Made by a program: the position numbers and the translations under genes
Notes under the pieces: model-generated
Told to the model about the DNA's origin: nothing
The model's database searches: none
The model's input: only the letters and a program-made list of their open reading frames with translations
In this document: piece after piece, positions 3,338-40,104 of the stretch
Layout of the letters: each line of letters starts with the position of its first letter
Position numbering within the stretch: the first letter of the stretch is position 1
UHGV virus genome: UHGV-0384112
DNA from: a virus
Strand: one strand, 5' to 3'
Length of the DNA: 40,340 nucleotides

Positions 3338-3986
3338 AGGCGCAGTACCGCAAATTTTTATTCAGGGATTTATTGGTTCTAGTTGGTTCTTTGAAGGGAA
3401 TACTGACAAGGGAATCAAAAATATTTTGGATAGTCTAGGTGATCAAGAAGAAATTGAAGTAGTAATTAATTCAAACGGTGGAGACGTATTTCAAGGGATT
3501 GCTATTGGGAACTTACTTAAGTCAAATAAAGCAAAAGTTAACGTTGTGATTAACGGCTTAGCCGCTAGTGCTGCTTCAATTATCGCAATGGCTGGCGATA
3601 CTATAAAAATCTACAACAATGCACAATTGATGATTCACCGCGCTTCCACATACGGAGAAGGAAATGTCGATGACTTCCGTACGATTGCTGACCAACTGGA
3701 ATCAATTGATAAATCGGTAAAGGCTTCATATAAAACACGATTCAATGGCACAGATGAAGCATTGCAAGAACTTCTTGAAAAAGAATCGTTTATGGATGCA
3801 GAAACAGCTTTGAGTTATGGATTGGTCGATGAAATTATCGATGCAGAAAATAGCTCAGGTACTGAAGCTAAAAAAGAACAAAGCGTTGAAGAAATTTTGA
3901 ATGACGTTAAAGAAAAAAGAGCAGAAAAAATTGCTGCATTTACAGCAGCATTAAATAAAACATTTGGACAAGGAGATGTAAAATAA
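3300..3986 (+). CDS. prohead serine protease, ClpP-like
   Basis: ClpP-like motifs VINSNGGDVFQGIAIGN, GLAASAASIIAMAGD (Ser) and MIHRA (His). Strong RBS GAAAGGAGGTGA upstream of ATG 3300. The ORF track start at 3291 is probably too early. Confidence 0.8.
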   Translation: MTTMKTFLAVKNEGAVPQIFIQGFIGSSWFFEGNTDKGIKNILDSLGDQEEIEVVINSNGGDVFQGIAIGNLLKSNKAKVNVVINGLAASAASIIAMAGDTIKIYNNAQLMIHRASTYGEGNVDDFRTIADQLESIDKSVKASYKTRFNGTDEALQELLEKESFMDAETALSYGLVDEIIDAENSSGTEAKKEQSVEEILNDVKEKRAEKIAAFTAALNKTFGQGDVK

Positions 3987-24311: not shown

Positions 24312-24508
24312 TTGTGCCAAATTATGTGCCAAAAAAATTCGAATTCAACAAAATGTAAACAAATAGAAAACCTTCTATATTAAGATTTCCTGCAATAACA
24401 AACACAACAGAAGACGTGTAATAGTTAGTCAGGAACGTATAAATAACCCCTGTATCCTTTGCGGTACAGGGGTTTGTTTTGTATTTGTGCCAAAAATGTG
24501 CCAAACTA
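24312..24508. repeat. four copies of TGTGCCAAA in two tandem pairs (24313-24334 and 24487-24508) flanking a hairpin; candidate arm-type integrase-binding sites / attP region
   Basis: Seen directly. Immediately 3' of the integrase gene, where attP usually lies. Confidence 0.4.
24449..24482 (+). terminator. rho-independent terminator (CCCCTGTA-tcctttgcgg-TACAGGGG + TTTGTTTT)
   Basis: Seen directly. It lies between the two TGTGCCAAA repeat pairs. Confidence 0.55.
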
Positions 24509-25675
24509 GTTATCATTTTTATATAAACTATCGAACACAGTATTGATTTTTTCTTTATCCTGATCTTCAAGCTCTCGAACAATATGAAGATAAGTAGACA
24601 TTGTAGTTTCTAAACTGCTATGTCCTAAACGTTTCGATACGCTAAGTATATTTACTCCTTGATAAAGTAAAATAGATGCATGTGTATGCCTTAGTCCATG
24701 CAAAGTAAATTGCTTTTCAATCCCTAATTCTTTTAATTTTTTGCGCAAATATTTGCTGACGGCGTTTGATGAAACTAATCCATTTTTTAAGTTGAAAAAA
24801 ACAAAATTATGAGGGTTTTTGATTTCAAAATTCTCGAATAATTCTTTTTGATTGATTTTAAACTTTTTTAAGAGATCAATCGTATGTTTATCAATGGAAA
24901 TTTTCCTATTTGAAGTTTCGTTTTTTGTTTTTCCCCATTCATTTAATTTATAATTCCATGTTTTATTAATAGTGATGATTTGATCTTCGAAATCGATATC
25001 TTCCCATGTTAATCCTAGAAGTTCAGCAAATCGCATTCCAGTGGCACCAGCAACTAACACGAGCATAGGAGAAGAGTACTGCGCAGAAAGGTTTTCTTCT
25101 ACGAGTTTCATTAAAGATTTAAATTGATCATAATCTAAATATTTATCTTCTTTTGGCTTCAATGAATCTTTTCCTTTGATTACTGCTTTTCTAGTTGGAT
25201 CAAACGGAATTAATCCTTCTTCTACGGCATCTTTCAACGACGCTCTAATATGGTTATTAAACTTAATAACGGTAGATTTTACATGGTCTTTAGCATACTT
25301 ATTTAAAAAGCGTTGATATCCCACTCTATCTAAATCAGAAATCAATACCGCTGGCATATATTTCTTTATGTTCATTAACGTATCTTCGTATTTTCTATAA
25401 GTGATAGGAGATACTGTTCCTTCTTTATAAAGTTGCATCCAATCCTCAAAGTAATCTGATAATAATAGATTTTTGCGATCCCCTTTAAGGCCTTTGTTCA
25501 AGTTATATTCTAATTCGTTGGCGGCATCTTTTGCTTCTCCTTTTGTCTTAAATCCTGATTTTCTTATCTTCGTGTATTTTCCGTCATCTTTTTTGTATGA
25601 AATTTCGTATTGCCAACTATTTCCACGTTTGACTAATCTTGCCATAATTGAATCAGCTCTCTTTCTCTGATACAA
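24506..25675 (-). CDS. int: tyrosine site-specific integrase
   Basis: 389 aa. The C-terminal catalytic region contains R…HGLRHTHASILL…LGHSSLETTMSTYLH (R-H-R-Y). Confidence 0.9.
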   Translation of the reverse strand: MYQRKRADSIMARLVKRGNSWQYEISYKKDDGKYTKIRKSGFKTKGEAKDAANELEYNLNKGLKGDRKNLLLSDYFEDWMQLYKEGTVSPITYRKYEDTLMNIKKYMPAVLISDLDRVGYQRFLNKYAKDHVKSTVIKFNNHIRASLKDAVEEGLIPFDPTRKAVIKGKDSLKPKEDKYLDYDQFKSLMKLVEENLSAQYSSPMLVLVAGATGMRFAELLGLTWEDIDFEDQIITINKTWNYKLNEWGKTKNETSNRKISIDKHTIDLLKKFKINQKELFENFEIKNPHNFVFFNLKNGLVSSNAVSKYLRKKLKELGIEKQFTLHGLRHTHASILLYQGVNILSVSKRLGHSSLETTMSTYLHIVRELEDQDKEKINTVFDSLYKNDN

Positions 25676-32009: not shown

Positions 32010-32351
32010 ATGGAAAAAGAACTTTCCACTCTAGATCAATATTTGATTGATCCTGATTGGGGCAAGCCGAAAATTGAGGAAACAAGTGGTCGAAAAATCA
32101 GACGAAATCTTTTGACGAATGAAGAACTAGCTTGGGATCAAGATGATTTAGGCAACCATGTAACTATTTGGGATCATGTTTATCTTATCCATCTATCGAA
32201 GCATTCGAATAAACCTGAATATATTTACGTCATCGAAGATGGCTTGATTGATGCGCTAGAAGAGTACGACAGAGATAACTTGATTGATATCTCTTATTAC
32301 GGACCAGGTAAGAAATACATTGCTGAAATGGAGGCAGAATTTGATGAGTGA
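32010..32351 (+). CDS. hypothetical protein
   Basis: 113 aa with RBS AAGGAG. Confidence 0.5.
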   Translation: MEKELSTLDQYLIDPDWGKPKIEETSGRKIRRNLLTNEELAWDQDDLGNHVTIWDHVYLIHLSKHSNKPEYIYVIEDGLIDALEEYDRDNLIDISYYGPGKKYIAEMEAEFDE

Positions 32352-33015
32352 AATCAAAGGGACAACGAACTTTGAAAAACTTTTTAGTCGTAAGTTAAAT
32401 AAAATTCTCAAGAAAAAAGGAAATTTTGATTATTTATCTTGGGCTCACGCGTGGGAGATTATGAAAAAGAATGATCCACAGGCAACGGTAACTATTAATG
32501 AGTACAAACACTACAGGGTTGTTTCTGGAACTCATCAAGACTTTCTTGTTGAGGAATATAAACCTTTTCTTATGGATGAAACTGGGACTTATGTATCTGT
32601 CTCAGTAACGGTTAAAGGACACACGGAAACCGAATTATTTCCTGTTTTAGATTATCGAAACCAACCAGTTGTTAAACCAAATGCAATGCAAATCAATAAC
32701 TCATTGAAGCGATGCTTTGTGAAAGCATTGGCTCTACACGGACTGGGATTATATGTATTTCAAGGGGAAGATATTCCAACACCACCTAGAATCGATACAA
32801 AGAAATTAAACATGCTAGAGACGATTCTAGAAGCTTTCAATGAGCAGATGGGTAAAGATATGACCAAAACCTTAATCGAATATGTTAATGAGCAGACAGA
32901 TAAATTAGGGCTCTTAGCTGATAACGTTGAAACTATTGAACAGTTAAGCTATGAGCAATGTGCCTTGATGGAGCGAGCAATAGCAGCTAAGAGAAAAGAA
33001 TTAGATAAGAAGTGA
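32344..33015 (+). CDS. putative single-strand annealing protein (Rad52/Sak-like; tentative)
   Basis: Position in the recombination/replication module. The motif …NAMQINNSLKRCFVKALALHGLGLYVFQGED recalls Sak/DUF1071-type SSAPs from memory only. ATG 32344 follows GGAGG. Confidence 0.35.
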   Translation: MSEIKGTTNFEKLFSRKLNKILKKKGNFDYLSWAHAWEIMKKNDPQATVTINEYKHYRVVSGTHQDFLVEEYKPFLMDETGTYVSVSVTVKGHTETELFPVLDYRNQPVVKPNAMQINNSLKRCFVKALALHGLGLYVFQGEDIPTPPRIDTKKLNMLETILEAFNEQMGKDMTKTLIEYVNEQTDKLGLLADNVETIEQLSYEQCALMERAIAAKRKELDKK

Positions 33016-33709: not shown

Positions 33710-34459
33710 ATGACAGAACATCGAAGTTATTATGCGATTATACCAGCCAACGTAAGGTACGACAAAAGACTTAAACCAAATACTAAGTTGTTATACGGAG
33801 AGATAACGGCCTTGTGTAATGAAAGAGGCTTTTGTTGGGCAGGCAATGAGTACTTTGCAGATTTATATGGTGTGAATAAAGAGACCATATCGCGATGGGT
33901 AAGTGATTTGATTAAGTTTGGATACTTGAATCGGGAAATCATTTACAAAGAGGGTACCAATCAAATAATCAATAGGTACCTACGAATTAATCAATACCCT
34001 ATTGACGAAAAACGCAATACCCCTATTGACGAAAAAGTCAAAGATAATAATACATCTATTAATAATACATTTAATAATACAAAAGAATATATAAGAGAGT
34101 TACCGCCTTCGAAAAAATCGAAGGCTAAGCCCGTCCGTCATAAATACGGAGAGTATAAAAATGTTCTTTTGTCAGATGAGCAGATGGAGAAACTCAAAAC
34201 AGAATTCCCTAATGATTACCAAGAGCGAATCGAACGACTGTCAGAGTATTGTGAATCATCTGGTAAGACTTATAAAAACTATTTGGCAACTATTCGAAGT
34301 TGGGCAAGGAAAGAAAAAAGTGAACCTAAGAACGCAAGCAGTGGATACAAGCGCACAGGAAGACGAGAGAAGCTTCCTGAATGGGCAATCGACCAAGAAG
34401 CCTATCTCAAGAAAAAAGCGCTAGAACGAGCTAATAGACAATCAAAAGCACCATTCTAA
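33710..34459 (+). CDS. DnaD-like replisome organizer / replication initiation protein
   Basis: N-terminal Phage_rep_org_N-like pattern (YYAIIPANVRYDKRL…KLLYGEITALCNERGFCWAGNEYFADLYGVNKETISRWVSDL). There is an internal duplication YPIDEKRNTPIDEK. Confidence 0.6.
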   Translation: MTEHRSYYAIIPANVRYDKRLKPNTKLLYGEITALCNERGFCWAGNEYFADLYGVNKETISRWVSDLIKFGYLNREIIYKEGTNQIINRYLRINQYPIDEKRNTPIDEKVKDNNTSINNTFNNTKEYIRELPPSKKSKAKPVRHKYGEYKNVLLSDEQMEKLKTEFPNDYQERIERLSEYCESSGKTYKNYLATIRSWARKEKSEPKNASSGYKRTGRREKLPEWAIDQEAYLKKKALERANRQSKAPF

Positions 34460-37561: not shown

Positions 37562-37978
37562 TTGATGCAATTGTTACGAGAGGTAGATTTCAAACAGACA
37601 AGATGTAATGCGAGAGATGTGCTGAAGAACTTTCGGCGTTTGGAGCGGATGGCAGGTCGCTCTTTGATAGATATTAAGTCGCCGATTATAACGGATATGC
37701 CGAAGGCACCGAAGCATGGCAATAAGGCAGAAGACGCGATTATTCAGATGATGGATATAGAAACGGAGAGAGATGCGATTCTAGCGGCTTTGATGGCTCT
37801 TAGTCTGATTAGTCGTCAGATACTCTACTACAGCTTCTGTGTGCCAGATAGCTTCTCAAACTACAGAATTAGCCGTGAAGTGGGTTATTCAGAAAGAAGT
37901 ATACAACGGATGAAGTCGGAAGCTCTAATAGAGTTTGCAGAAGCATATAAACACGGAAAAATAATTGCTTATAAATAA
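37562..37978 (+). CDS. arpU: ArpU-family late transcriptional regulator (sigma-like)
   Basis: 138 aa in the last position of the early region before the packaging genes. It carries a sigma-70 region-4-like C-terminus (SREVGYSERSIQRMKSEALIEFAEAY). Confidence 0.7.
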   Translation: MMQLLREVDFKQTRCNARDVLKNFRRLERMAGRSLIDIKSPIITDMPKAPKHGNKAEDAIIQMMDIETERDAILAALMALSLISRQILYYSFCVPDSFSNYRISREVGYSERSIQRMKSEALIEFAEAYKHGKIIAYK

Positions 37979-38030
37979 TTTGGCGGTTTTTTGGCGGAAT
38001 GATGGCGGTTTTTAGACATTTACCAGTGTT
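37979..38030 (+). repeat. three direct GGCGG(T)n repeats (TGGCGGTTTTTTGGCGGAATGATGGCGGTTTTT)
   Basis: Seen directly, immediately after arpU. Confidence 0.3.
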
Positions 38031-38117
38031 ATTATGGTAGTGTCGAAAGATTAGGAAACAGGATCGACAAAATAAACGAAGGGAGGCAATCTCCCTCATC
38101 GTTTTAAACTTCTTCTT

Positions 38118-38262
38118 AGATAGACAGCAACTAATTATGAAGAAAAGGATGTGAATTCAACTCCTCCTAAATTCTTCATCGGTTGCTGTTTATTTTGATT
38201 AGACAGCAGCACTCACAAAACTAAACATGTTCTTGTCGTCTTTCAACTGCTGCTGTCTATTA
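38118..38262. repeat. four copies of the 12-mer ATA[GA]ACAGCA[GA]C (38120-38131 +, 38182-38193 -, 38199-38210 +, 38249-38260 -); a fifth copy at 38965-38976 (-)
   Basis: Counted by hand on both strands. They flank a convergent pair of small genes. Confidence 0.5.
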
Positions 38263-38286
38263 ATTTATGTATTGGAGGGAAGAAAA

Positions 38287-38439
38287 ATGAAATTATCAGT
38301 AGAAGGCACTCCAGAAGAAATACAAGAATTGCTCCAAGCTATTGGTAGTAGCAAGGAGCAAAAGGTAAGTGTTTCTAATTCAGATATTGACGGTATTTGC
38401 AATTGTTTAAACAGAGAAAAAATATCTAATCCTTACTAA
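38287..38439 (+). CDS. small hypothetical protein (50 aa)
   Basis: RBS GGAGGG before ATG 38287. Confidence 0.35.
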   Translation: MKLSVEGTPEEIQELLQAIGSSKEQKVSVSNSDIDGICNCLNREKISNPY

Positions 38440-38723
38440 GAGAAAATATGTTCGTTAATGAATTTCCAATTTTCCTCTGTAGCTCTACCTTGATAATTTT
38501 TTTGCAGTTCACAGATGAATAAGGAATCGTTATTATCAAGTACTGTATTTAATTTTTCACACATTTGATTTGGATTCAAATTAGTTTTAACTAACCAAAA
38601 AGATTTTTGTAGCTTTATATATGCCCCAAATTCTTTTATTATTTCAAATACTTTATCATACTTTTGCCCTGGGTTATTAAGATCATAACTAATCATGTAG
38701 GGTTTATACATGTTGTCTTGCAC
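38436..38723 (-). CDS. hypothetical 95-aa protein with a possible ferredoxin-like Cas2/VapD-type fold (speculative)
   Basis: The beta1 (YMISYDL) - loop - alpha (VFEIIKEFG) - beta2 (AYIKLQKSFWLV) - …DSLFICEL pattern resembles Cas2/VapD at motif level only. There is a TATAAT box about 50 nt upstream on the minus strand. Confidence 0.4.
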   Translation of the reverse strand: MQDNMYKPYMISYDLNNPGQKYDKVFEIIKEFGAYIKLQKSFWLVKTNLNPNQMCEKLNTVLDNNDSLFICELQKNYQGRATEENWKFINEHIFS

Positions 38724-39129
38724 ATCCTTGTTTTATATTTCAGCGGACCACTCGCTGATAAATAAAATTATACGCTTAGTATTTATTTTCACAATATTAA
38801 TTTATCGTAATAACTTTTGAGTAAATAGAACAAAAAACCTGCACTAGTTTCCGCTAGTACAGGCAGTGACTATATCGGTTGATAATCTAGCATATATTGA
38901 AAATAATTGCAAGAAAAGAAATTTATAGTGGTTTATACCAAATTATCAAAGCAATGTTATTTTGTTGCTGTCTATTGTTTTTTAATTATTCACACGATAA
39001 CTAAAGGTGGGTGAAGAGAAATGATTCCATTAATAATTTCAATTTTTGCGCTCTGTCTTAATGTCTATATGATTGGATTTAAAAATGGGCAAAATAAAAA
39101 ATAGTAGCAGCCAAGAATAATTTTATAGT

Positions 39130-39217
39130 GTCACTGTGGCGGAAAGGGTAGACGCTAAGCATGTGTGCTAGGTCAATGCTTCGGCAACCATGCAAGGTTC
39201 GATTCCTTGCCAGCGAC
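39130..39217 (+). ncRNA. tRNA-like element 1 (non-canonical)
   Basis: 5' GTCACTG…3' CAGCGAC acceptor-like pairing with one mismatch. D-arm-like TGGCGG-AAAGGGTAGA-CGC, an AAGCAT/ATGCTT stem with a 13-nt loop, and a canonical T-arm CAAGG-TTCGATT-CCTTG. Confidence 0.3.
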
Positions 39218-39327
39218 ATTAAATGCCTATGACGGTTACGACTACCGAAAAAAGATCGTTAAGAAGCTATACGGTGCTACGTACGGCAATGTAGTAAGTG
39301 TGCTATCTGTACACCACCAAGCTTCGG

Positions 39328-39424
39328 TCACTGTGGCGGAAGTAGAAGACGCAGCGGTAAATGGCGAGTAGCCTCGTGAGAGCCTGGTAAGTTCTCGTGA
39401 GTGGTGCAATCCCACTCCAGCGAC
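39328..39424 (+). ncRNA. tRNA-like element 2 (diverged tandem copy of element 1)
   Basis: It shares GTCACTGTGGCGGAA…GACGC at the 5' side and …CCAGCGAC at the 3' side. T-arm-like GAGTGG-TGCAATC-CCACTC. Confidence 0.3.
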
Positions 39425-39566
39425 TTTAAGCAACCGAGGCATCGGCGGTTTAAAAATATAGGGGTGCGCAATTTCGTACGCGTTTTGTGCATCGTGCAAG
39501 TTACTATTACATATTAGATCACTCTTTGAGTGGTCTTTTTATTTTTGCACAAAGGAGGAAACAACA

Positions 39567-39734
39567 ATGTATAGACCACAATACTTAGAACAGAAGTATG
39601 AAGTAATCACTGTTCATAAAGGTAATGGCGAAAAAGTATATGAGTATAGAAGACCAATAAAGAGCGATACATATAAACGAAAGGAAAACAATGAAGTTAT
39701 TCCATTGTATGGCAAAAGAATAGCTAAGCATTAA
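39567..39734 (+). CDS. small hypothetical protein (55 aa)
   Basis: RBS AGGAGG 8 nt before ATG 39567. Confidence 0.4.
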   Translation: MYRPQYLEQKYEVITVHKGNGEKVYEYRRPIKSDTYKRKENNEVIPLYGKRIAKH

Positions 39735-39759: not shown

Positions 39760-40104
39760 ATGACCGAGGAATTCTATAGATGGCTATTACAGTTGACAAG
39801 AGAAGATCGTTTGGTTAAGTTCTATCAGTCTCCTAAATGGCGCAGGCTTAGAGAGAAAGCGATGAAACGAGATCACTATGAATGCCAAGAGTGTAGAAGA
39901 CTAGGTAAGTATCATAGAGTAGAGAACGTTCATCATATAAAGGAAGTCAAGGATAGACCTGACTTAGCTTTAGATTTAGATAATCTTATTTGTTTATGTG
40001 TTGAACATCATAATGAAGTTCATGGCAGATATCTTACAGCATTAGATAAACAAGAGAAGAAGATAGAAAGCTTTGCTAACTTCGATGCAAGTGAAAGGTG
40101 GTAA
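39760..40104 (+). CDS. HNH endonuclease (terminase-associated)
   Basis: CxxC…HHIKEV…NLICLCVEHHNEVHG. Adjacent (in circular order) to terS/terL, as in cos-type HNH-terminase phages. Confidence 0.8.
   Translation: MTEEFYRWLLQLTREDRLVKFYQSPKWRRLREKAMKRDHYECQECRRLGKYHRVENVHHIKEVKDRPDLALDLDNLICLCVEHHNEVHGRYLTALDKQEKKIESFANFDASERW

What the first reader, a model, noticed from the sequence alone, without database searches (positions are those of the whole stretch)
38118..38980. Dispersed 12-mer ATA[GA]ACAGCA[GA]C in both orientations framing a convergent pair of small genes, one with a Cas2/VapD-like fold pattern
Seen: five copies of the 12-mer (38120, 38182 rc, 38199, 38249 rc, 38965 rc). The copies at 38199 and 38249 form an inverted pair around the RBS and start of the 50-aa gene. 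Between the repeat groups lie two convergent, overlapping small ORFs: 38287..38439 (+) and 38436..38723 (-). The 95-aa minus-strand product has a beta-alpha-beta layout with the YDL and DSLFICEL elements found in Cas2/VapD-type nucleases. This is a speculative, motif-level call. The whole block sits between the late activator ArpU and the packaging genes. The repeats may be binding sites for a regulator (ArpU?), iteron-like elements, or part of a small mobile or addiction module.
Basis: partly seen in the sequence, partly recalled or inferred. Interest (0 to 1): 0.55.

Follow-up and report, generated by a model that had tools for sequence, protein, structure and literature searches.

The report
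Late-leader hairpins flanking Cas2-like moron
The repeated 12-mers are the two strands of a conserved hairpin in the untranslated leader of an Enterococcus phage's late operon, and between hairpin copies sits an inserted, backwards-facing gene for a stand-alone Cas2/VapD-type protein: real and tidy, but a new member of known kinds, not a new system.

Summary
The 10-nt core occurs 5 times in 856 bp and nowhere else in the 40-kb phage genome (0.31 expected).

The 12-mers are not ArpU sites, iterons or transposon ends.
- ArpU's sites are the three TTGGCGG direct repeats at 37980-38008. They are identical to the sites validated experimentally in phiFL2A.
- The 12-mers are the basal stems of two tandem hairpins, at 38120-38193 and 38199-38260. 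They lie about 80 nt into the inferred ArpU-dependent late transcript.
- A hairpin sits at this position in every one of 54 distinct related leaders, behind four different activator or promoter modules.
- Substitutions inside the stem are all G·U on the sense strand. More distant relatives show compensatory changes.
- Homology between phages breaks exactly at the 3' arm.
- The lone fifth copy (38964) is a leftover 3' arm at the far end of an inserted cassette.

The 91-aa minus-strand protein is a confident Cas2/VapD-superfamily fold: pLDDT 92.8, top PDB matches all Cas2, invariant Asp10 and Ser37. It is just below the curated Cas2 cut-off. It has no Cas1 or CRISPR array nearby and has its own promoter facing the lysogeny direction.

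The 50-aa neighbour marks a hotspot for reverse-oriented genes. It is not a specific partner of the Cas2-like protein.

The functions of both the hairpin and the protein are inferred.

The parts
37565..37978 (+). arpU, the late-gene activator
   Evidence: TIGR01637 phage_arpU, E 1.2e-45; phrog_248.
37980..38008 (+). Three TTGGCGG direct repeats spaced 11 bp apart: the ArpU binding sites
   Evidence: Sequence; TRF period 11. They are identical to the phiFL2A repeats, which reporter assays and EMSA showed to be required for ArpU activation and binding (PMC3753634). The box type co-varies perfectly with the ArpU C-terminal 45 aa.
38027..38035 (+). Extended -10 (TGtTATTAT) of the inferred ArpU-dependent late promoter
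   Evidence: Sequence. The same geometry (boxes, 21 nt, TGnTAATAT) is found in phiFL2A and is conserved in relatives. The transcription start site is inferred, not mapped.
38080..38096 (.). Leader hairpin 1 (AGGGAGGCAATCTCCCT), terminator-like on both strands
   Evidence: It is conserved, or replaced by other hairpins, at the same place in relatives.
38120..38193 (+). Class-A hairpin (74 nt). Its arms are 12-mer copies 1 and 2, and its apex carries AAGGATGTGAATTCAACTCCT.
   Evidence: (I2). There are 40 or more variants of 69-89 nt at the same leader position. The sense-strand fold is more stable in 33 of 40 variants.
38199..38260 (+). Class-B hairpin (62 nt). Its arms are 12-mer copies 3 and 4, forming a 12-bp perfect stem with a poorly structured 36-nt interior.
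   Evidence: (I8). It replaces class A as the only hairpin in L073, L106, L084 and L107.
38287..38439 (+). orf50, a small late-direction gene (phrog_10973) with the N-terminal motif IxxLLQAIGSSxEQ
   Evidence: The family has 280 clusters. In three of three sampled contexts it is followed tail-to-tail by a reverse gene, but that gene varies.
38436..38711 (-). Stand-alone Cas2/VapD-superfamily protein (91 aa, phrog_1090)
38740..38794 (-). Promoter and 5' UTR of the Cas2-like gene: -35 TTGTGA (38794-38789), -10 TATAAT (38772-38767), and a 5' UTR hairpin (38740-38758)
   Evidence: and the sequence. The same block drives unrelated reverse genes in L106, L141 and L054.
38837..38864 (-). Minus-strand intrinsic-terminator-like hairpin upstream of that promoter, part of the conserved reverse 'platform' (38724-38963)
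38964..38975 (+). Solo fifth 12-mer (GTTGCTGTCTAT), a 3'-arm remnant at the right junction of the inserted cassette
   Evidence: L120 has a hairpin followed directly by the sequence that follows this copy in the window. L007 has the next cassette head after it. Solo copies in 10 or more loci are all in 3'-arm orientation, with no solo 5' arm. Some are 5'-truncated hairpins.

Best explanation
The window is a complete temperate Enterococcus siphovirus genome. terS and terL are at the left end and HNH is at the right end.

1. Late promoter. Directly after arpU lie three TTGGCGG ArpU boxes and an extended -10. This is the late promoter. The boxes are shown by analogy with phiFL2A; the start site is inferred.

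2. The 12-mers. The late transcript opens with a structured leader. The 12-mers are the two strands of the basal stem of hairpins in that leader: class A at 38120-38193 and class B at 38199-38260. I conclude they act as RNA, in cis, on the late transcript.

3. Hairpin function. The most likely role (inferred, about 0.3) is a processing or stabilising element. It could be cut in its double-stranded stem by an RNase III-type enzyme, or it could protect the 5' end. Either way it would separate the leader from the first downstream cistron.

4. Cassette junctions. The hairpin is conserved among otherwise mosaic phages, so its 3' arm is where homology ends and where different cargo cassettes are joined. 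Recombination between phages, which the phage's own Sak annealing protein would favour, leaves extra 3' arms or half-hairpins in front of downstream cassettes. The fifth copy at 38964 is such a scar.

5. The cargo here. One such cassette holds orf50 (late direction) and a reverse-oriented Cas2/VapD-fold gene. That gene is driven by a portable sigma-70-type promoter 'platform', which carries other reverse genes in related phages.

6. The Cas2-like protein. It has the catalytic-position Asp and Ser but no Cas1 or CRISPR context. It points the same way as the integrase and repressor genes. It is most likely a nuclease made in the lysogen and used in phage-phage or phage-host conflict, not in CRISPR adaptation (inferred).

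The confidence of 0.55 is for the whole package. The anatomy alone (leader hairpin, not an ArpU site, cassette junction, Cas2/VapD fold) I put at about 0.85. The specific functions I put at about 0.3.
For: Anatomy and conservation
- Five copies are confined to 856 bp.
- The exact inverted pair occurs in 79 IMG/VR loci.
- A hairpin starts 108-114 nt after the last ArpU box in all 54 distinct leaders of close ArpU relatives: 36 exact, 12 with two or fewer substitutions, and the rest diverged.
- The same hairpin follows ArpU(TGGCGG), ArpU(GTAGGG) and two other upstream modules.

Hairpin, not a duplex protein site
- The distance between arms varies from 36 to 65 nt. Three unrelated inner stems (ATGAAGAA/TTCTTCAT, AACTAA/TTAGTT, TTAAGAA/TTCTTA) all keep complementarity.
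- Compensatory changes occur in L205 (C-G to U-A) and in EG-TP1 (A-U to G-C and U-A to A-U, read).
- 92.9% of cells are paired, against 19-68% when the partners are slid. The covariation score exceeded all 500 shuffles.

RNA on the sense strand
- All 14 one-sided changes at interior pairs 2-10 are G·U or U·G. None is A·C.
- The sense fold is more stable in 33 of 40 class-A variants.
- The one copy outside a late leader has the same orientation as its flanking genes.

Processing context
- PMC3753634 reports extensively processed late RNA.
- In phiFL2A the published 5' end (a G 118 bp before terS) falls 2 nt after a tRNA-Arg in the leader.

Junction role
- Homology breaks right after ...GYTGCTGTCTAT.
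- The L120, L007, L009 and L106 comparisons show the junctions directly.
- There are no solo 5' arms, while 10 or more loci have solo 3' arms.
- The window encodes a Sak single-strand annealing protein at 32284-33015. Rad52-like recombinases drive relaxed recombination in temperate phages (PMC3945230).

Cas2-like protein
- It has its own promoter.
- In Tetragenococcus it is reverse-oriented inside the early lytic operon, co-oriented with int and cI. Other loci show it in the early region beside antirepressor and cro genes.
Against: - No transcript data exist for this phage. The promoter, the start site and the transcription of the hairpin are all inferred.
- The R11/Y2' pair behaves as if the two arms assort independently: A·C was seen 2 times against about 3 expected (my count).
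- For the class-B hairpin the antisense strand folds better, -28.1 against -20.5 kcal/mol. Its 13-bp stem is short for RNase III.
- Over the whole 249-nt leader, sense and antisense fold equally well.
- Half-hairpins at cassette heads cannot fold, so they cannot share the proposed function.
- phiFL2A has ArpU boxes but no 12-mer hairpin, so the hairpin is not needed for ArpU action as such.
- Nuclease activity, the target and expression in lysogens are all untested for the Cas2-like protein. It falls below TIGR01573's cut-off and misses Pfam entirely.
Confidence: 0.55

Rival explanations
1. The leader hairpins (hairpin 1 plus the 12-mer hairpin) are a cis-acting read-through or antitermination element, like the put RNAs of HK022. 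They would let ArpU-initiated polymerase pass the conserved terminator-like hairpin in front of the packaging genes, and pass the convergent reverse genes.
For: - A canonical terminator-like hairpin with a T-run (39516-39536) lies between the inferred late promoter and p9904/HNH/terS. It is conserved at that place in many relatives.
- PMC3753634 found no read-through from an upstream Pcad promoter without the Ltr protein, yet found Ltr-dependent expression of a terS fusion across the same region.
- There is no room for a terminator between the arpU stop codon and the boxes.
- Two stem-loops lie about 40-150 nt into the transcript.
Against: - phiFL2A, where those experiments were done, lacks the 12-mer hairpin.
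- No put-like or other Rfam family matches.
- The terminator may simply be leaky, or it may act as a 5' UTR stabiliser.
- Class A and class B share only the stem.
Confidence: 0.12
2. The 12-mers are duplex-DNA binding sites for a phage or host protein, such as small terminase or another regulator. That protein would loop or occupy the region downstream of the late promoter.
For: - The stem sequence itself, not only the pairing, is strongly conserved.
- Class A and class B share only the arms.
- The copies occur in both orientations near the packaging genes.
Against: - The spacing between arms varies from 36 to 65 nt, which is not phased to the helix.
- Inner stems co-vary, and more distant relatives change the arm sequence while keeping the pairing.
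- Interior mismatches are all G·U on one strand.
- No copy occurs at the cI/cro switch or anywhere else in the genome.
- The cos site is expected between HNH and terS at the window ends, 1-2 kb away.
- Upstream activators and downstream genes both vary while the hairpin stays.
Confidence: 0.1
3. The hairpins are terminators or insulators. They would stop early (arpU) transcripts from entering the late genes, or stop the reverse Cas2-like transcript from running back into arpU.
For: - PMC3753634 infers a terminator in the ltr-terS intergenic region.
- Hairpin 1 looks like a terminator, with the better U-tail on the minus strand.
- The 3' arm is followed by U-rich sequence (CUAUUAAUUUAU).
Against: - The terminator scan did not call the 12-mer hairpins.
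- Their loops or interiors of 36-65 nt and the interrupted U-tract are atypical for terminators.
- They lie downstream of the inferred late start site, so they would also stop late transcripts.
Confidence: 0.1
4. orf50 plus the Cas2-like gene would be a toxin-antitoxin or addiction pair, or a small mobile element, whose own inverted repeats are the 12-mers.
For: - The Cas2/VapD fold is a known toxin fold (PMC6452270).
- The convergent pair recurs in other genome positions (L012, L016, L018, L145).
- Perfect 12-bp inverted repeats at 38120 and 38964 bound the block (I3).
Against: - Most hairpin-bearing phages lack the Cas2-like gene, and distant Cas2-like loci lack the 12-mer.
- orf50-like genes are followed by unrelated reverse genes elsewhere.
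- The two genes are convergent and belong to opposite expression programmes, unlike type II TA operons.
- The hairpin is present at only 1-2 copies per Enterococcus genome.
- No transposase is present.
Confidence: 0.05

Closest known systems
CRISPR-associated Cas2 (TIGR01573 / PF09827)
   Same: - Ferredoxin-like b-a-b-b-a-b fold of about 90 aa.
- Invariant Asp at the end of beta1 and a Ser at the beta2-beta3 turn. These are the metal or active-site positions in E. faecalis Cas2, as described in PMC10491678.
- Ten Cas2 profiles match, and the top structural hits are Cas2.
   Different: - It is below the curated cut-off (23.0 against 24.5 bits), and there is no Pfam hit.
- There is no cas1 gene and no CRISPR array.
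- It ends in a C-terminal helix, not the beta-strand that docks Cas1 (PMC10491678).
- It is phage-borne, reverse-oriented, and has its own promoter.
BPSL1038 (7vxr), a Cas2/VapD nuclease sub-family
   Same: - Best TM-scores of all hits (0.74-0.78).
- A stand-alone protein with a b-a-b-b-a-b-a layout and a C-terminal helix.
- An Asp on beta1 plus Ser/Thr at the beta2-beta3 turn.
   Different: - Only 15-16% identity.
- Its signature D11(X20)SST is absent. Here the pattern is D10(X26)S37 in the context QKSFW.
- BPSL1038 is chromosomal in Burkholderia and is not phage-borne.
VapD toxins (VapXD type II toxin-antitoxin)
   Same: Same superfamily and fold, a small stand-alone nuclease on mobile DNA (PMC6452270; 6zi1 hit).
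   Different: - The structural match is weaker (E 0.03, TM 0.49).
- There is no co-directional antitoxin gene.
- The neighbour is convergent, and it also accompanies unrelated reverse genes.
RNase III processing hairpins between cistrons of phage transcripts (T7 R sites, SP82 early mRNA). This comparison rests on my own knowledge.
   Same: Sequence-conserved long imperfect hairpins recur in untranslated stretches of a polycistronic phage transcript, just upstream of ribosome-binding sites.
   Different: - Cleavage is untested.
- Class B has only a 13-bp stem.
- Only one or two full hairpins occur per genome, all in the late leader.
Integron attC sites
   Same: Imperfect hairpins of variable length (62-89 nt here, 57-141 for attC). 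The arms are conserved, the centre is free to vary, and the sites sit at cassette boundaries.
   Different: - The RYYYAAC/GTTRRRY core sequences are not matched.
- There is no IntI integrase. The only tyrosine recombinase is the phage integrase 13 kb away.
- Many junction copies are half-hairpins.
- The cassettes carry their own promoters.
ArpU/Ltr binding repeats (PMC3753634)
   Same: They lie in the same intergenic region downstream of arpU.
   Different: Those sites are three 7-nt direct repeats immediately after the stop codon. In the window these are TTGGCGG at 37980-38008. The 12-mers are inverted, lie 110 nt or more further on, and do not co-vary with ArpU.

Membership tests
Cas2 (CRISPR adaptation) | Ferredoxin-like b-a-b-b-a-b fold of about 90 aa | tested here: met
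   AF2 pLDDT 92.8, strands and helices E3-10 H18-28 E30-35 E38-43 H47-54 E63-68 H79-89. The top Foldseek PDB hits are 4es1/2/3, 7f84, 1zpw, 3exc and 7mi4.
Cas2 (CRISPR adaptation) | Conserved Asp at the C-terminal end of beta1 | tested here: met
   D10 is invariant in 19 sequences, within the SYDL motif. It lies at the end of strand 3-10. Residue-level superposition was not done.
Cas2 (CRISPR adaptation) | Passes curated family thresholds (TIGR01573, Pfam CRISPR_Cas2) | tested here: not met
   TIGR01573 scores 23.0 bits against a cut-off of 24.5. There is no Pfam Cas2 hit at E<=1.
Cas2 (CRISPR adaptation) | Encoded next to cas1 and a CRISPR array | tested here: not met
   The neighbours are ArpU, orf50, non-coding elements and HNH. 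There is no CRISPR-like array in the window. No cas genes were seen in the contexts sampled.
Cas2 (CRISPR adaptation) | C-terminal beta-strand that docks onto Cas1 | tested here: not met
   The model ends in helix 79-89. The requirement is as stated in PMC10491678.
VapD toxin of a type II TA pair | Co-transcribed cognate antitoxin gene | tested here: not met
   The neighbour is convergent. The orf50-like family also precedes unrelated reverse genes.
VapD toxin of a type II TA pair | Growth-inhibiting nuclease activity | not testable with these tools
   Needs expression and nuclease assays.
BPSL1038 sub-family | D11(X20)SST active-site motif | tested here: not met
   The family has D10 and S37 (X26) and no SST. 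The motif is as defined in PMC10491678.
ArpU/Ltr operator | [quoted passage not shown] | tested here: not met
   The 12-mers are inverted, start 142 nt after the stop codon, and are identical behind both ArpU C-terminal types. The TTGGCGG repeats at 37980-38008 do meet the definition.
Iterons / replication origin | Tandem direct repeats at or next to a replication initiator gene | tested here: not met
   The arrangement is inverted and the region is far from the replication genes. Tandem repeats lie inside the initiator-like gene at 33953-34081.
MITE / small mobile element | Many dispersed copies per genome in either orientation, with target-site duplications | tested here: not met
   There are 1-2 hairpin loci per Enterococcus species genome. 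Orientation and position relative to the late promoter are fixed.
Integron attC | R''/R' core sites (RYYYAAC...GTTRRRY) and an IntI integrase | tested here: not met
   The arms CAGCARC/GYTGCTG do not fit the core consensus. The only integrase is the arm-type phage integrase at 24506-25675.
Intrinsic terminator | Short GC-rich hairpin with a loop of 3-8 nt, followed directly by a U-run | tested here: not met
   The scan did not call them. Interiors are 36-65 nt and the tail is CUAUUAAUUUAU.
Structured cis-acting RNA hairpin | Pairing kept through compensatory and wobble changes, with strand asymmetry | tested here: met
   plus EG-TP1. The sample is of close relatives, so support is moderate.

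The most novel reading that the evidence does not exclude
The leader hairpin would be a dedicated cassette-capture site, working like an integron attC in a phage late-operon leader. Circular or linear cargo carrying one 12-mer arm would recombine at the folded hairpin. This would build arrays of morons, including reverse-oriented defence-type genes such as the Cas2-like nuclease, each bounded by a 3' arm.
Probability: 0.05. Interest if true: 0.85.

Novelty: new member of a known kind. Interest (0 to 1): 0.45.

Why it matters
1. It relocates the ArpU operator and late promoter of this phage group to 37980-38035. It also shows that the long gap between arpU and terS is a structured, probably processed leader. 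The phiFL2A 'start site' in the literature coincides with the 3' end of a tRNA, which bears on how Ltr/ArpU/RinA-type late control really works. The open question is promoter activation alone versus read-through of leader terminators.

2. It defines a precise, conserved junction, the hairpin's 3' arm. There Enterococcus faecium-group prophages swap accessory genes, including a portable reverse-promoter platform. That junction is a practical handle for finding lysogen-expressed cargo.

3. It flags a large unannotated family of stand-alone Cas2/VapD-fold proteins: about 3,800 clusters at 50% identity, absent from Pfam. In the contexts examined here the members sit in temperate phages and prophages. 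The family is a candidate nuclease class for phage-phage or phage-host conflict.

Tried and rejected
- Rfam, at gathering threshold and at E<=10 over 37950-39600: nothing credible for the hairpins or the tRNA-like elements.
- Literature search for the 12-mer strings: only unrelated primer sequences.
- PDB sequence searches: the top hits were Midasin AAA segments, a local b-a-b resemblance with per-domain E of 0.19 or worse. I treated these as spurious. Cas2 7mi4 reached only E 0.088 with the profile.
- BFVD fold search: no annotated viral relative.
- Pfam for both small proteins: only sub-threshold noise.
- cos or pac site: rejected. The window starts at terS/terL and ends after HNH, so cos is expected at the window ends.
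- CI operator: rejected. There is no copy at the cI/cro region.
- orf50 as a specific partner or antitoxin of the Cas2-like protein: considered because the pair recurs and several partners end in ..PY. I dropped it after finding orf50-like genes next to unrelated reverse genes.
- Fetching distant ArpU loci from IMG/VR: this returned only 97-100% identical ones. They were useful for prevalence but not for deep covariation.
- Acceptor-stem covariation in the tRNA-like elements: position 4 assorts independently.
Full report
**1. Observation**

The window region 38118-38980 was read directly.
- ATARACAGCARC has four exact matches, at 38120(+), 38182(-), 38249(-) and 38964(-). Expectation is 0.04, and no shuffle out of 100 reached four.
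- The copy at 38199(+) is TTAGACAGCAGC, one mismatch.
- The 10-nt core gives exactly these five hits in the 40,340-bp window against 0.31 expected.
- The two small ORFs exist and overlap at their stop codons.

Two details need correction.
- The fifth copy starts at 38964, not 38965.
- The 38199/38249 pair ends at 38260. That is upstream of the RBS (38274-38279) and the ATG (38287) of the 50-aa gene. The pair does not enclose them.

**2. Genome context**

The window is a complete temperate siphovirus genome. It contains:
- terS (Terminase_4, 153-467), terL and portal at the left end;
- an amidase, then a tRNA-Met;
- integrase (24506-25675), an M78 peptidase and an HTH repressor, all on the minus strand;
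- Rha, a Sak annealing protein (32284-33015) and a replication initiator-like gene with internal tandem repeats (33953-34081);
- arpU (37565-37978);
- an HNH endonuclease (39760-40104) at the right end.

With HNH at one end and terS at the other, cos is expected at the window ends and not at 38.1-39.0 kb. This rests on established knowledge of HNH/P27-type cos phages.

The relatives are Enterococcus phages: 4995_2 and vB_ElaS_B1578, plus two records labelled Acinetobacter and Listeria that share this region at about 80-84% identity.

**3. Where ArpU binds**

Three TTGGCGG repeats with 11-bp spacing follow the arpU stop codon directly (37980-38008). After 21 nt comes an extended -10, TGtTATTAT (38027-38035).

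phiFL2A has the same three repeats, the same 21-nt gap and TGcTAATAT. For phiFL2A, Quiles-Puchalt et al. showed two things (PMC3753634):
- the three 7-nt direct repeats just distal to arpU are required for ArpU-dependent activation;
- ArpU binds them in EMSA, and the Ltr C-terminus sets the specificity.

In my loci the repeat type correlates perfectly with the last ~45 residues of ArpU:
- TGGCGG goes with ...VPDSFSNYRISREVGYSERSIQRMKSEAL...
- GTAGGG goes with ...DVNKHSNYEIGQLIRGYGEKNVEKLKSIAL...

The N-terminal ~92 residues are nearly identical in both types. The 12-mer hairpin is the same behind both types. It also follows two other upstream modules that lack these boxes. Hence the 12-mers are not the ArpU operator.

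**4. What the 12-mers are**

Copies 1 and 2, and copies 3 and 4, are the arms of two tandem hairpins.

An exact-pattern scan of IMG/VR found 79 loci with such an inverted pair. Most of them lie about 145 bp after an ArpU stop codon.

Of 80 loci fetched through ArpU (97-100% identical), 75 have the boxes. All 54 distinct downstream sequences carry a hairpin starting 108-114 nt after the last box:

| Group | Distinct leaders |
|---|---|
| Exact pattern | 36 |
| Two or fewer arm substitutions | 12 |
| Compensatory C-G to U-A change (L205) | 1 |
| More diverged | 5 |

The conserved order of the leader is:
1. boxes;
2. extended -10;
3. AGTGTCGAAAGATTAGG...;
4. hairpin 1 (38080-38096 here);
5. CATCGTTT..AAGCTTCG;
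6. the 12-mer hairpin;
7. variable cargo.

Two hairpin classes share only the stem.
- Class A is 69-89 nt, with the apical motif GGATGTG..CA(A/G)CTCC.
- Class B is 62-63 nt.

The scan of one genome per species found the pair essentially only in Enterococcus: durans, lactis, villorum, thailandicus, spodopteracolus and one unnamed species. There are one or two loci per genome. That rules out a dispersed MITE.

**5. Hairpin or duplex site? RNA or DNA?**

Three observations argue for a folded hairpin and against a protein site on duplex DNA.
- The distance between arms ranges from 36 to 65 nt.
- Three unrelated inner stems keep complementarity in different size classes.
- Phage EG-TP1 (ArpU 64% identical) has a hairpin at the same place, 9 nt before the same tRNA-like element. 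Its basal stem is different (AAGACGGC.../...GCCGTCTT), with two compensatory changes relative to AGACAGC/GCTGTCT. Its apex (GGAGTTGAATTCACTCC) is similar.

On 34 distinct arm pairs, 92.9% of cells pair, against 19-68% when partners are slid. The covariation score exceeds all 500 shuffles.

Strand asymmetry favours RNA on the sense strand.
- At interior pairs 2-10, all 14 one-sided changes give G·U or U·G on the arpU-sense strand. None gives A·C.
- The sense fold is more stable than the antisense fold in 33 of 40 class-A variants, with means of -30.4 and -27.4 kcal/mol.

Some results cut the other way.
- Pair 11 behaves as if the arms assort independently.
- Class B folds better in antisense.
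- The whole 249-nt leader folds equally well on both strands.
- The sequences are close relatives, so events are few.

I therefore rate 'RNA hairpin on the late transcript' as well supported but not proven.

**6. The fifth copy and the 'framing'**

Homology among phages breaks immediately after ...GYTGCTGTCTAT. At least ten different sequences follow it.
- L120 has a class-A hairpin followed directly by TGTTTTTTTTAATTATTCACACGATAACTAAAGG... In the window this sequence follows the fifth copy (38976 onward). Relative to L120, the window therefore carries an insertion bounded by direct copies of the 3' arm.
- In L007 the same solo copy is followed by the cassette head TAATTTATGTATTGGAGGG and a second orf50-like gene.
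- In L006, L009, L010 and L011 the Cas2-like cassette abuts the tRNA-like element with no fifth copy.

Across 84 distinct loci, solo copies downstream of the hairpin occur in ten or more. All are in 3'-arm orientation, and none is a solo 5' arm. In L059, L065, L105 and L107 the 'solo' copy is visibly a 5'-truncated class-A hairpin (apex plus 3' half) sitting in front of the next gene's RBS.

The simplest reading is that the conserved hairpin is the homology anchor at which cargo is exchanged, and that the extra arms are recombination scars. The phage's Sak protein belongs to the Rad52-like recombinases, which are shown to drive relaxed homologous recombination in temperate phages (PMC3945230). 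The mechanism of exchange is inferred.

**7. The cargo**

Window 38724-38963 is a conserved reverse 'platform'. It consists of:
- a minus-strand terminator-like hairpin (38864-38837);
- a -35 TTGTGA, a 16-nt spacer and a -10 TATAAT (38794-38767);
- a 5' UTR hairpin (38740-38758).

In other phages the same block drives unrelated reverse genes: a 45-aa zinc-ribbon protein (L106), a 313-aa protein (L141) and a 75-aa protein (L054).

The Cas2-like gene is thus one of several alternative reverse-oriented morons with a sigma-70-type promoter. It points the same way as int and the repressor gene. In a Tetragenococcus prophage it sits, again reversed, inside the early lytic operon and is co-oriented with int and cI. 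In other loci it lies in the early region beside antirepressor and cro genes. This orientation suggests expression in the lysogen (inferred).

**8. The Cas2-like protein**

- Family assignments: phrog_1090, E 6e-36, function unknown. No Pfam family. Ten PADLOC Cas2 profiles, best E 4e-8. TIGR01573 cas2 at 23.0 bits against a cut-off of 24.5.
- Homologues: 24 clusters in Lactobacillales by the word-indexed search. A profile search of 1.84 billion representatives gives 3,782 hits at E<=1e-3 and 945 at E<=1e-10, nearly all about 90 aa.
- Conservation: the alignment has invariant S8-Y9-D10-L11, S37, D59, D62 and F65.
- Structure: AF2 gives pLDDT 92.8 and pTM 0.83, with the layout b1(3-10) a1(18-28) b2(30-35) b3(38-43) a2(47-54) b4(63-68) a3(79-89).
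- Structural matches: Foldseek against the PDB returns Cas2 from B. halodurans, Leptospira, Thermus, Sulfolobus, S. pyogenes and Cas4-Cas1-Cas2 complexes. The highest TM-scores (0.74-0.78) are to BPSL1038. VapD is weaker.

D10 sits at the end of beta1 and S37 at the b2-b3 turn. PMC10491678 equates these positions with D13 and S43 of E. faecalis Cas2 and with D11/SST of BPSL1038. The model ends in a helix, not the C-terminal strand that Cas2 uses to bind Cas1. There is no cas1 gene or CRISPR array nearby.

It is therefore a member of the Cas2/VapD superfamily (PMC6452270). It is not a CRISPR Cas2, not a BPSL1038 orthologue (no SST motif), and not a canonical VapXD toxin.

**9. The 50-aa neighbour**

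Its family (phrog_10973; N-terminal MKLTIEGTPEEIKELLQAIGSSKEQ) has 280 clusters.

The convergent, stop-overlapping arrangement with the Cas2-like gene recurs in other genome positions. This first suggested a two-gene system. However, three orf50-like genes sampled from the partner's side are each followed tail-to-tail by a reverse gene, and only one of those is Cas2-like. The others are an unrelated 117-aa protein and an unrelated 68-aa protein.

The orf50-like gene therefore marks a hotspot for reverse morons. A specific functional pairing is not supported, and a toxin-antitoxin reading is unlikely.

**10. Mechanism**

What is shown:
- the copies, the hairpins and their conservation;
- the position of the hairpins relative to the ArpU boxes;
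- the junction behaviour;
- the fold of the protein.

What is inferred:
- The late transcript starts near 38042.
- The hairpins act in cis on it. I favour a processing or stabilising role, for three reasons. First, PMC3753634 reports that late RNA is extensively processed. Second, in phiFL2A the published 5'-RACE end (a G 118 bp before the terS ATG, which is L142 position 3591) lies 2 nt after the 3' end of a tRNA-Arg embedded in the ~790-nt leader. This suggests a processed end and not a true start site. Third, class-A hairpins form long imperfect helices immediately 5' of ribosome-binding sites.
- An antitermination role is a live rival. A conserved terminator-like hairpin (39516-39536) sits between the promoter and the packaging genes. 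The same paper saw no read-through from an upstream promoter without the Ltr protein.

**11. Verdict**

The finding is real and now largely explained. It consists of a conserved late-leader hairpin that doubles as a cassette junction, and a stand-alone Cas2/VapD-fold moron. Neither the hairpin nor this protein family is described in the libraries I could search. Both are new members of known kinds, and their functions remain to be tested.

Noticed in passing
window 39130-39221 and 39327-39428; also L143 3153-3243 and many other loci: Two tRNA-like units start with GTCACTGTGGCGGAA and end with a T-arm-like hairpin (GCAAGGTTCGATTCCTTGC or GAGTGGTGCAATCCCACTC) plus CCAGCGAC. ARAGORN and Rfam do not call them. 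They recur in relatives with variable inserts, 90-290 nt in all. The T-arm stems differ by compensatory changes (CAAGG/CCTTG, AGTGG/CCACT, CAATG/CATTG). Acceptor position 4 shows no covariation. In the minimal leader layout they start 9 nt after the 12-mer hairpin.
   Followed up: partly
L142 (phiFL2A) 3515-3591: A tRNA-Arg(ACG) lies inside the arpU-terS leader. The 5'-RACE 'transcription start' published for phiFL2A is a G 118 bp upstream of the terS ATG, which is position 3591. That is 2 nt after the tRNA's discriminator base, so it is probably a processing site (PMC3753634; sequence). The true late start is more likely next to the ArpU boxes, about 620 nt further upstream.
   Followed up: partly
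window 39516-39546: A canonical terminator-like hairpin (AGATCACTCTTTGAGTGGTCT plus a T-run) lies directly before the RBS of the phrog_9904 gene. It sits between the inferred late promoter and HNH/terS and is conserved in many relatives. Late transcripts must pass it.
   Followed up: partly
window 39021-39104 (+): A 27-aa hydrophobic ORF (MIPLIISIFALCLNVYMIGFKNGQNKK) has a good RBS and follows the solo 12-mer. It is conserved in L003, L004, L008 and L120. It could be a small membrane peptide or a type-I-toxin-like peptide.
   Followed up: no
window 38837-38949 (-): The conserved block between the solo 12-mer and the minus-strand terminator carries promoter-like hexamers (TTGATA...TATAAA). It could give an antisense small RNA of about 50-90 nt ending at the 38864-38837 terminator.
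   Followed up: no
L106, L141, L054; L228-L232: The same reverse promoter platform and the orf50-like 'landing pad' accompany unrelated reverse-oriented genes: a 45-aa zinc-ribbon protein and proteins of 313, 117, 75 and 68 aa. This looks like a hotspot for lysogen-expressed accessory genes in Enterococcus and other Lactobacillales prophages.
   Followed up: partly
L049, L054, L058, L060, L067 and others: A third upstream module replaces the ArpU boxes. It has repeated TATACC/TACTACC motifs but keeps the same -10, leader and hairpin. A fourth module keeps only hairpin 1 and what follows it. This implies other activator families feed the same leader.
   Followed up: no
L063, L066, L068, L072, L087, L096, L116, L121: One identical 88-nt class-A hairpin copy lies near the ends of prophage contigs, outside any late leader. 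It sits between small membrane-protein genes and near an IS3-type transposase, co-oriented with its flanking genes.
   Followed up: partly
GenBank PQ554527.1, OR846730.1, OR848098.1: Records labelled 'Acinetobacter phage D2SVT' and 'Listeria phage LM 4-11-1 / 4-14-1' match the Enterococcus phage arpU and leader region at about 80-84% nucleotide identity. D2SVT scores identically to Enterococcus phage vB_ElaS_B1578. The host labels look doubtful.
   Followed up: no
window 38436-38711 (protein residues 33-71): There is a local sequence resemblance to the Walker-B to sensor-1 stretch of Midasin AAA domains. The full-sequence E is 2e-6 through repeated weak domains, with per-domain E of 0.19 or worse. 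I judged it a spurious b-a-b similarity.
   Followed up: yes
P0046 (1507 aa): A Cas2-like domain (residues 365-450) is embedded in a large protein that also has Baseplate_J and CBM_5_12 domains. It is either a fused tail protein or a gene-calling artefact.
   Followed up: no
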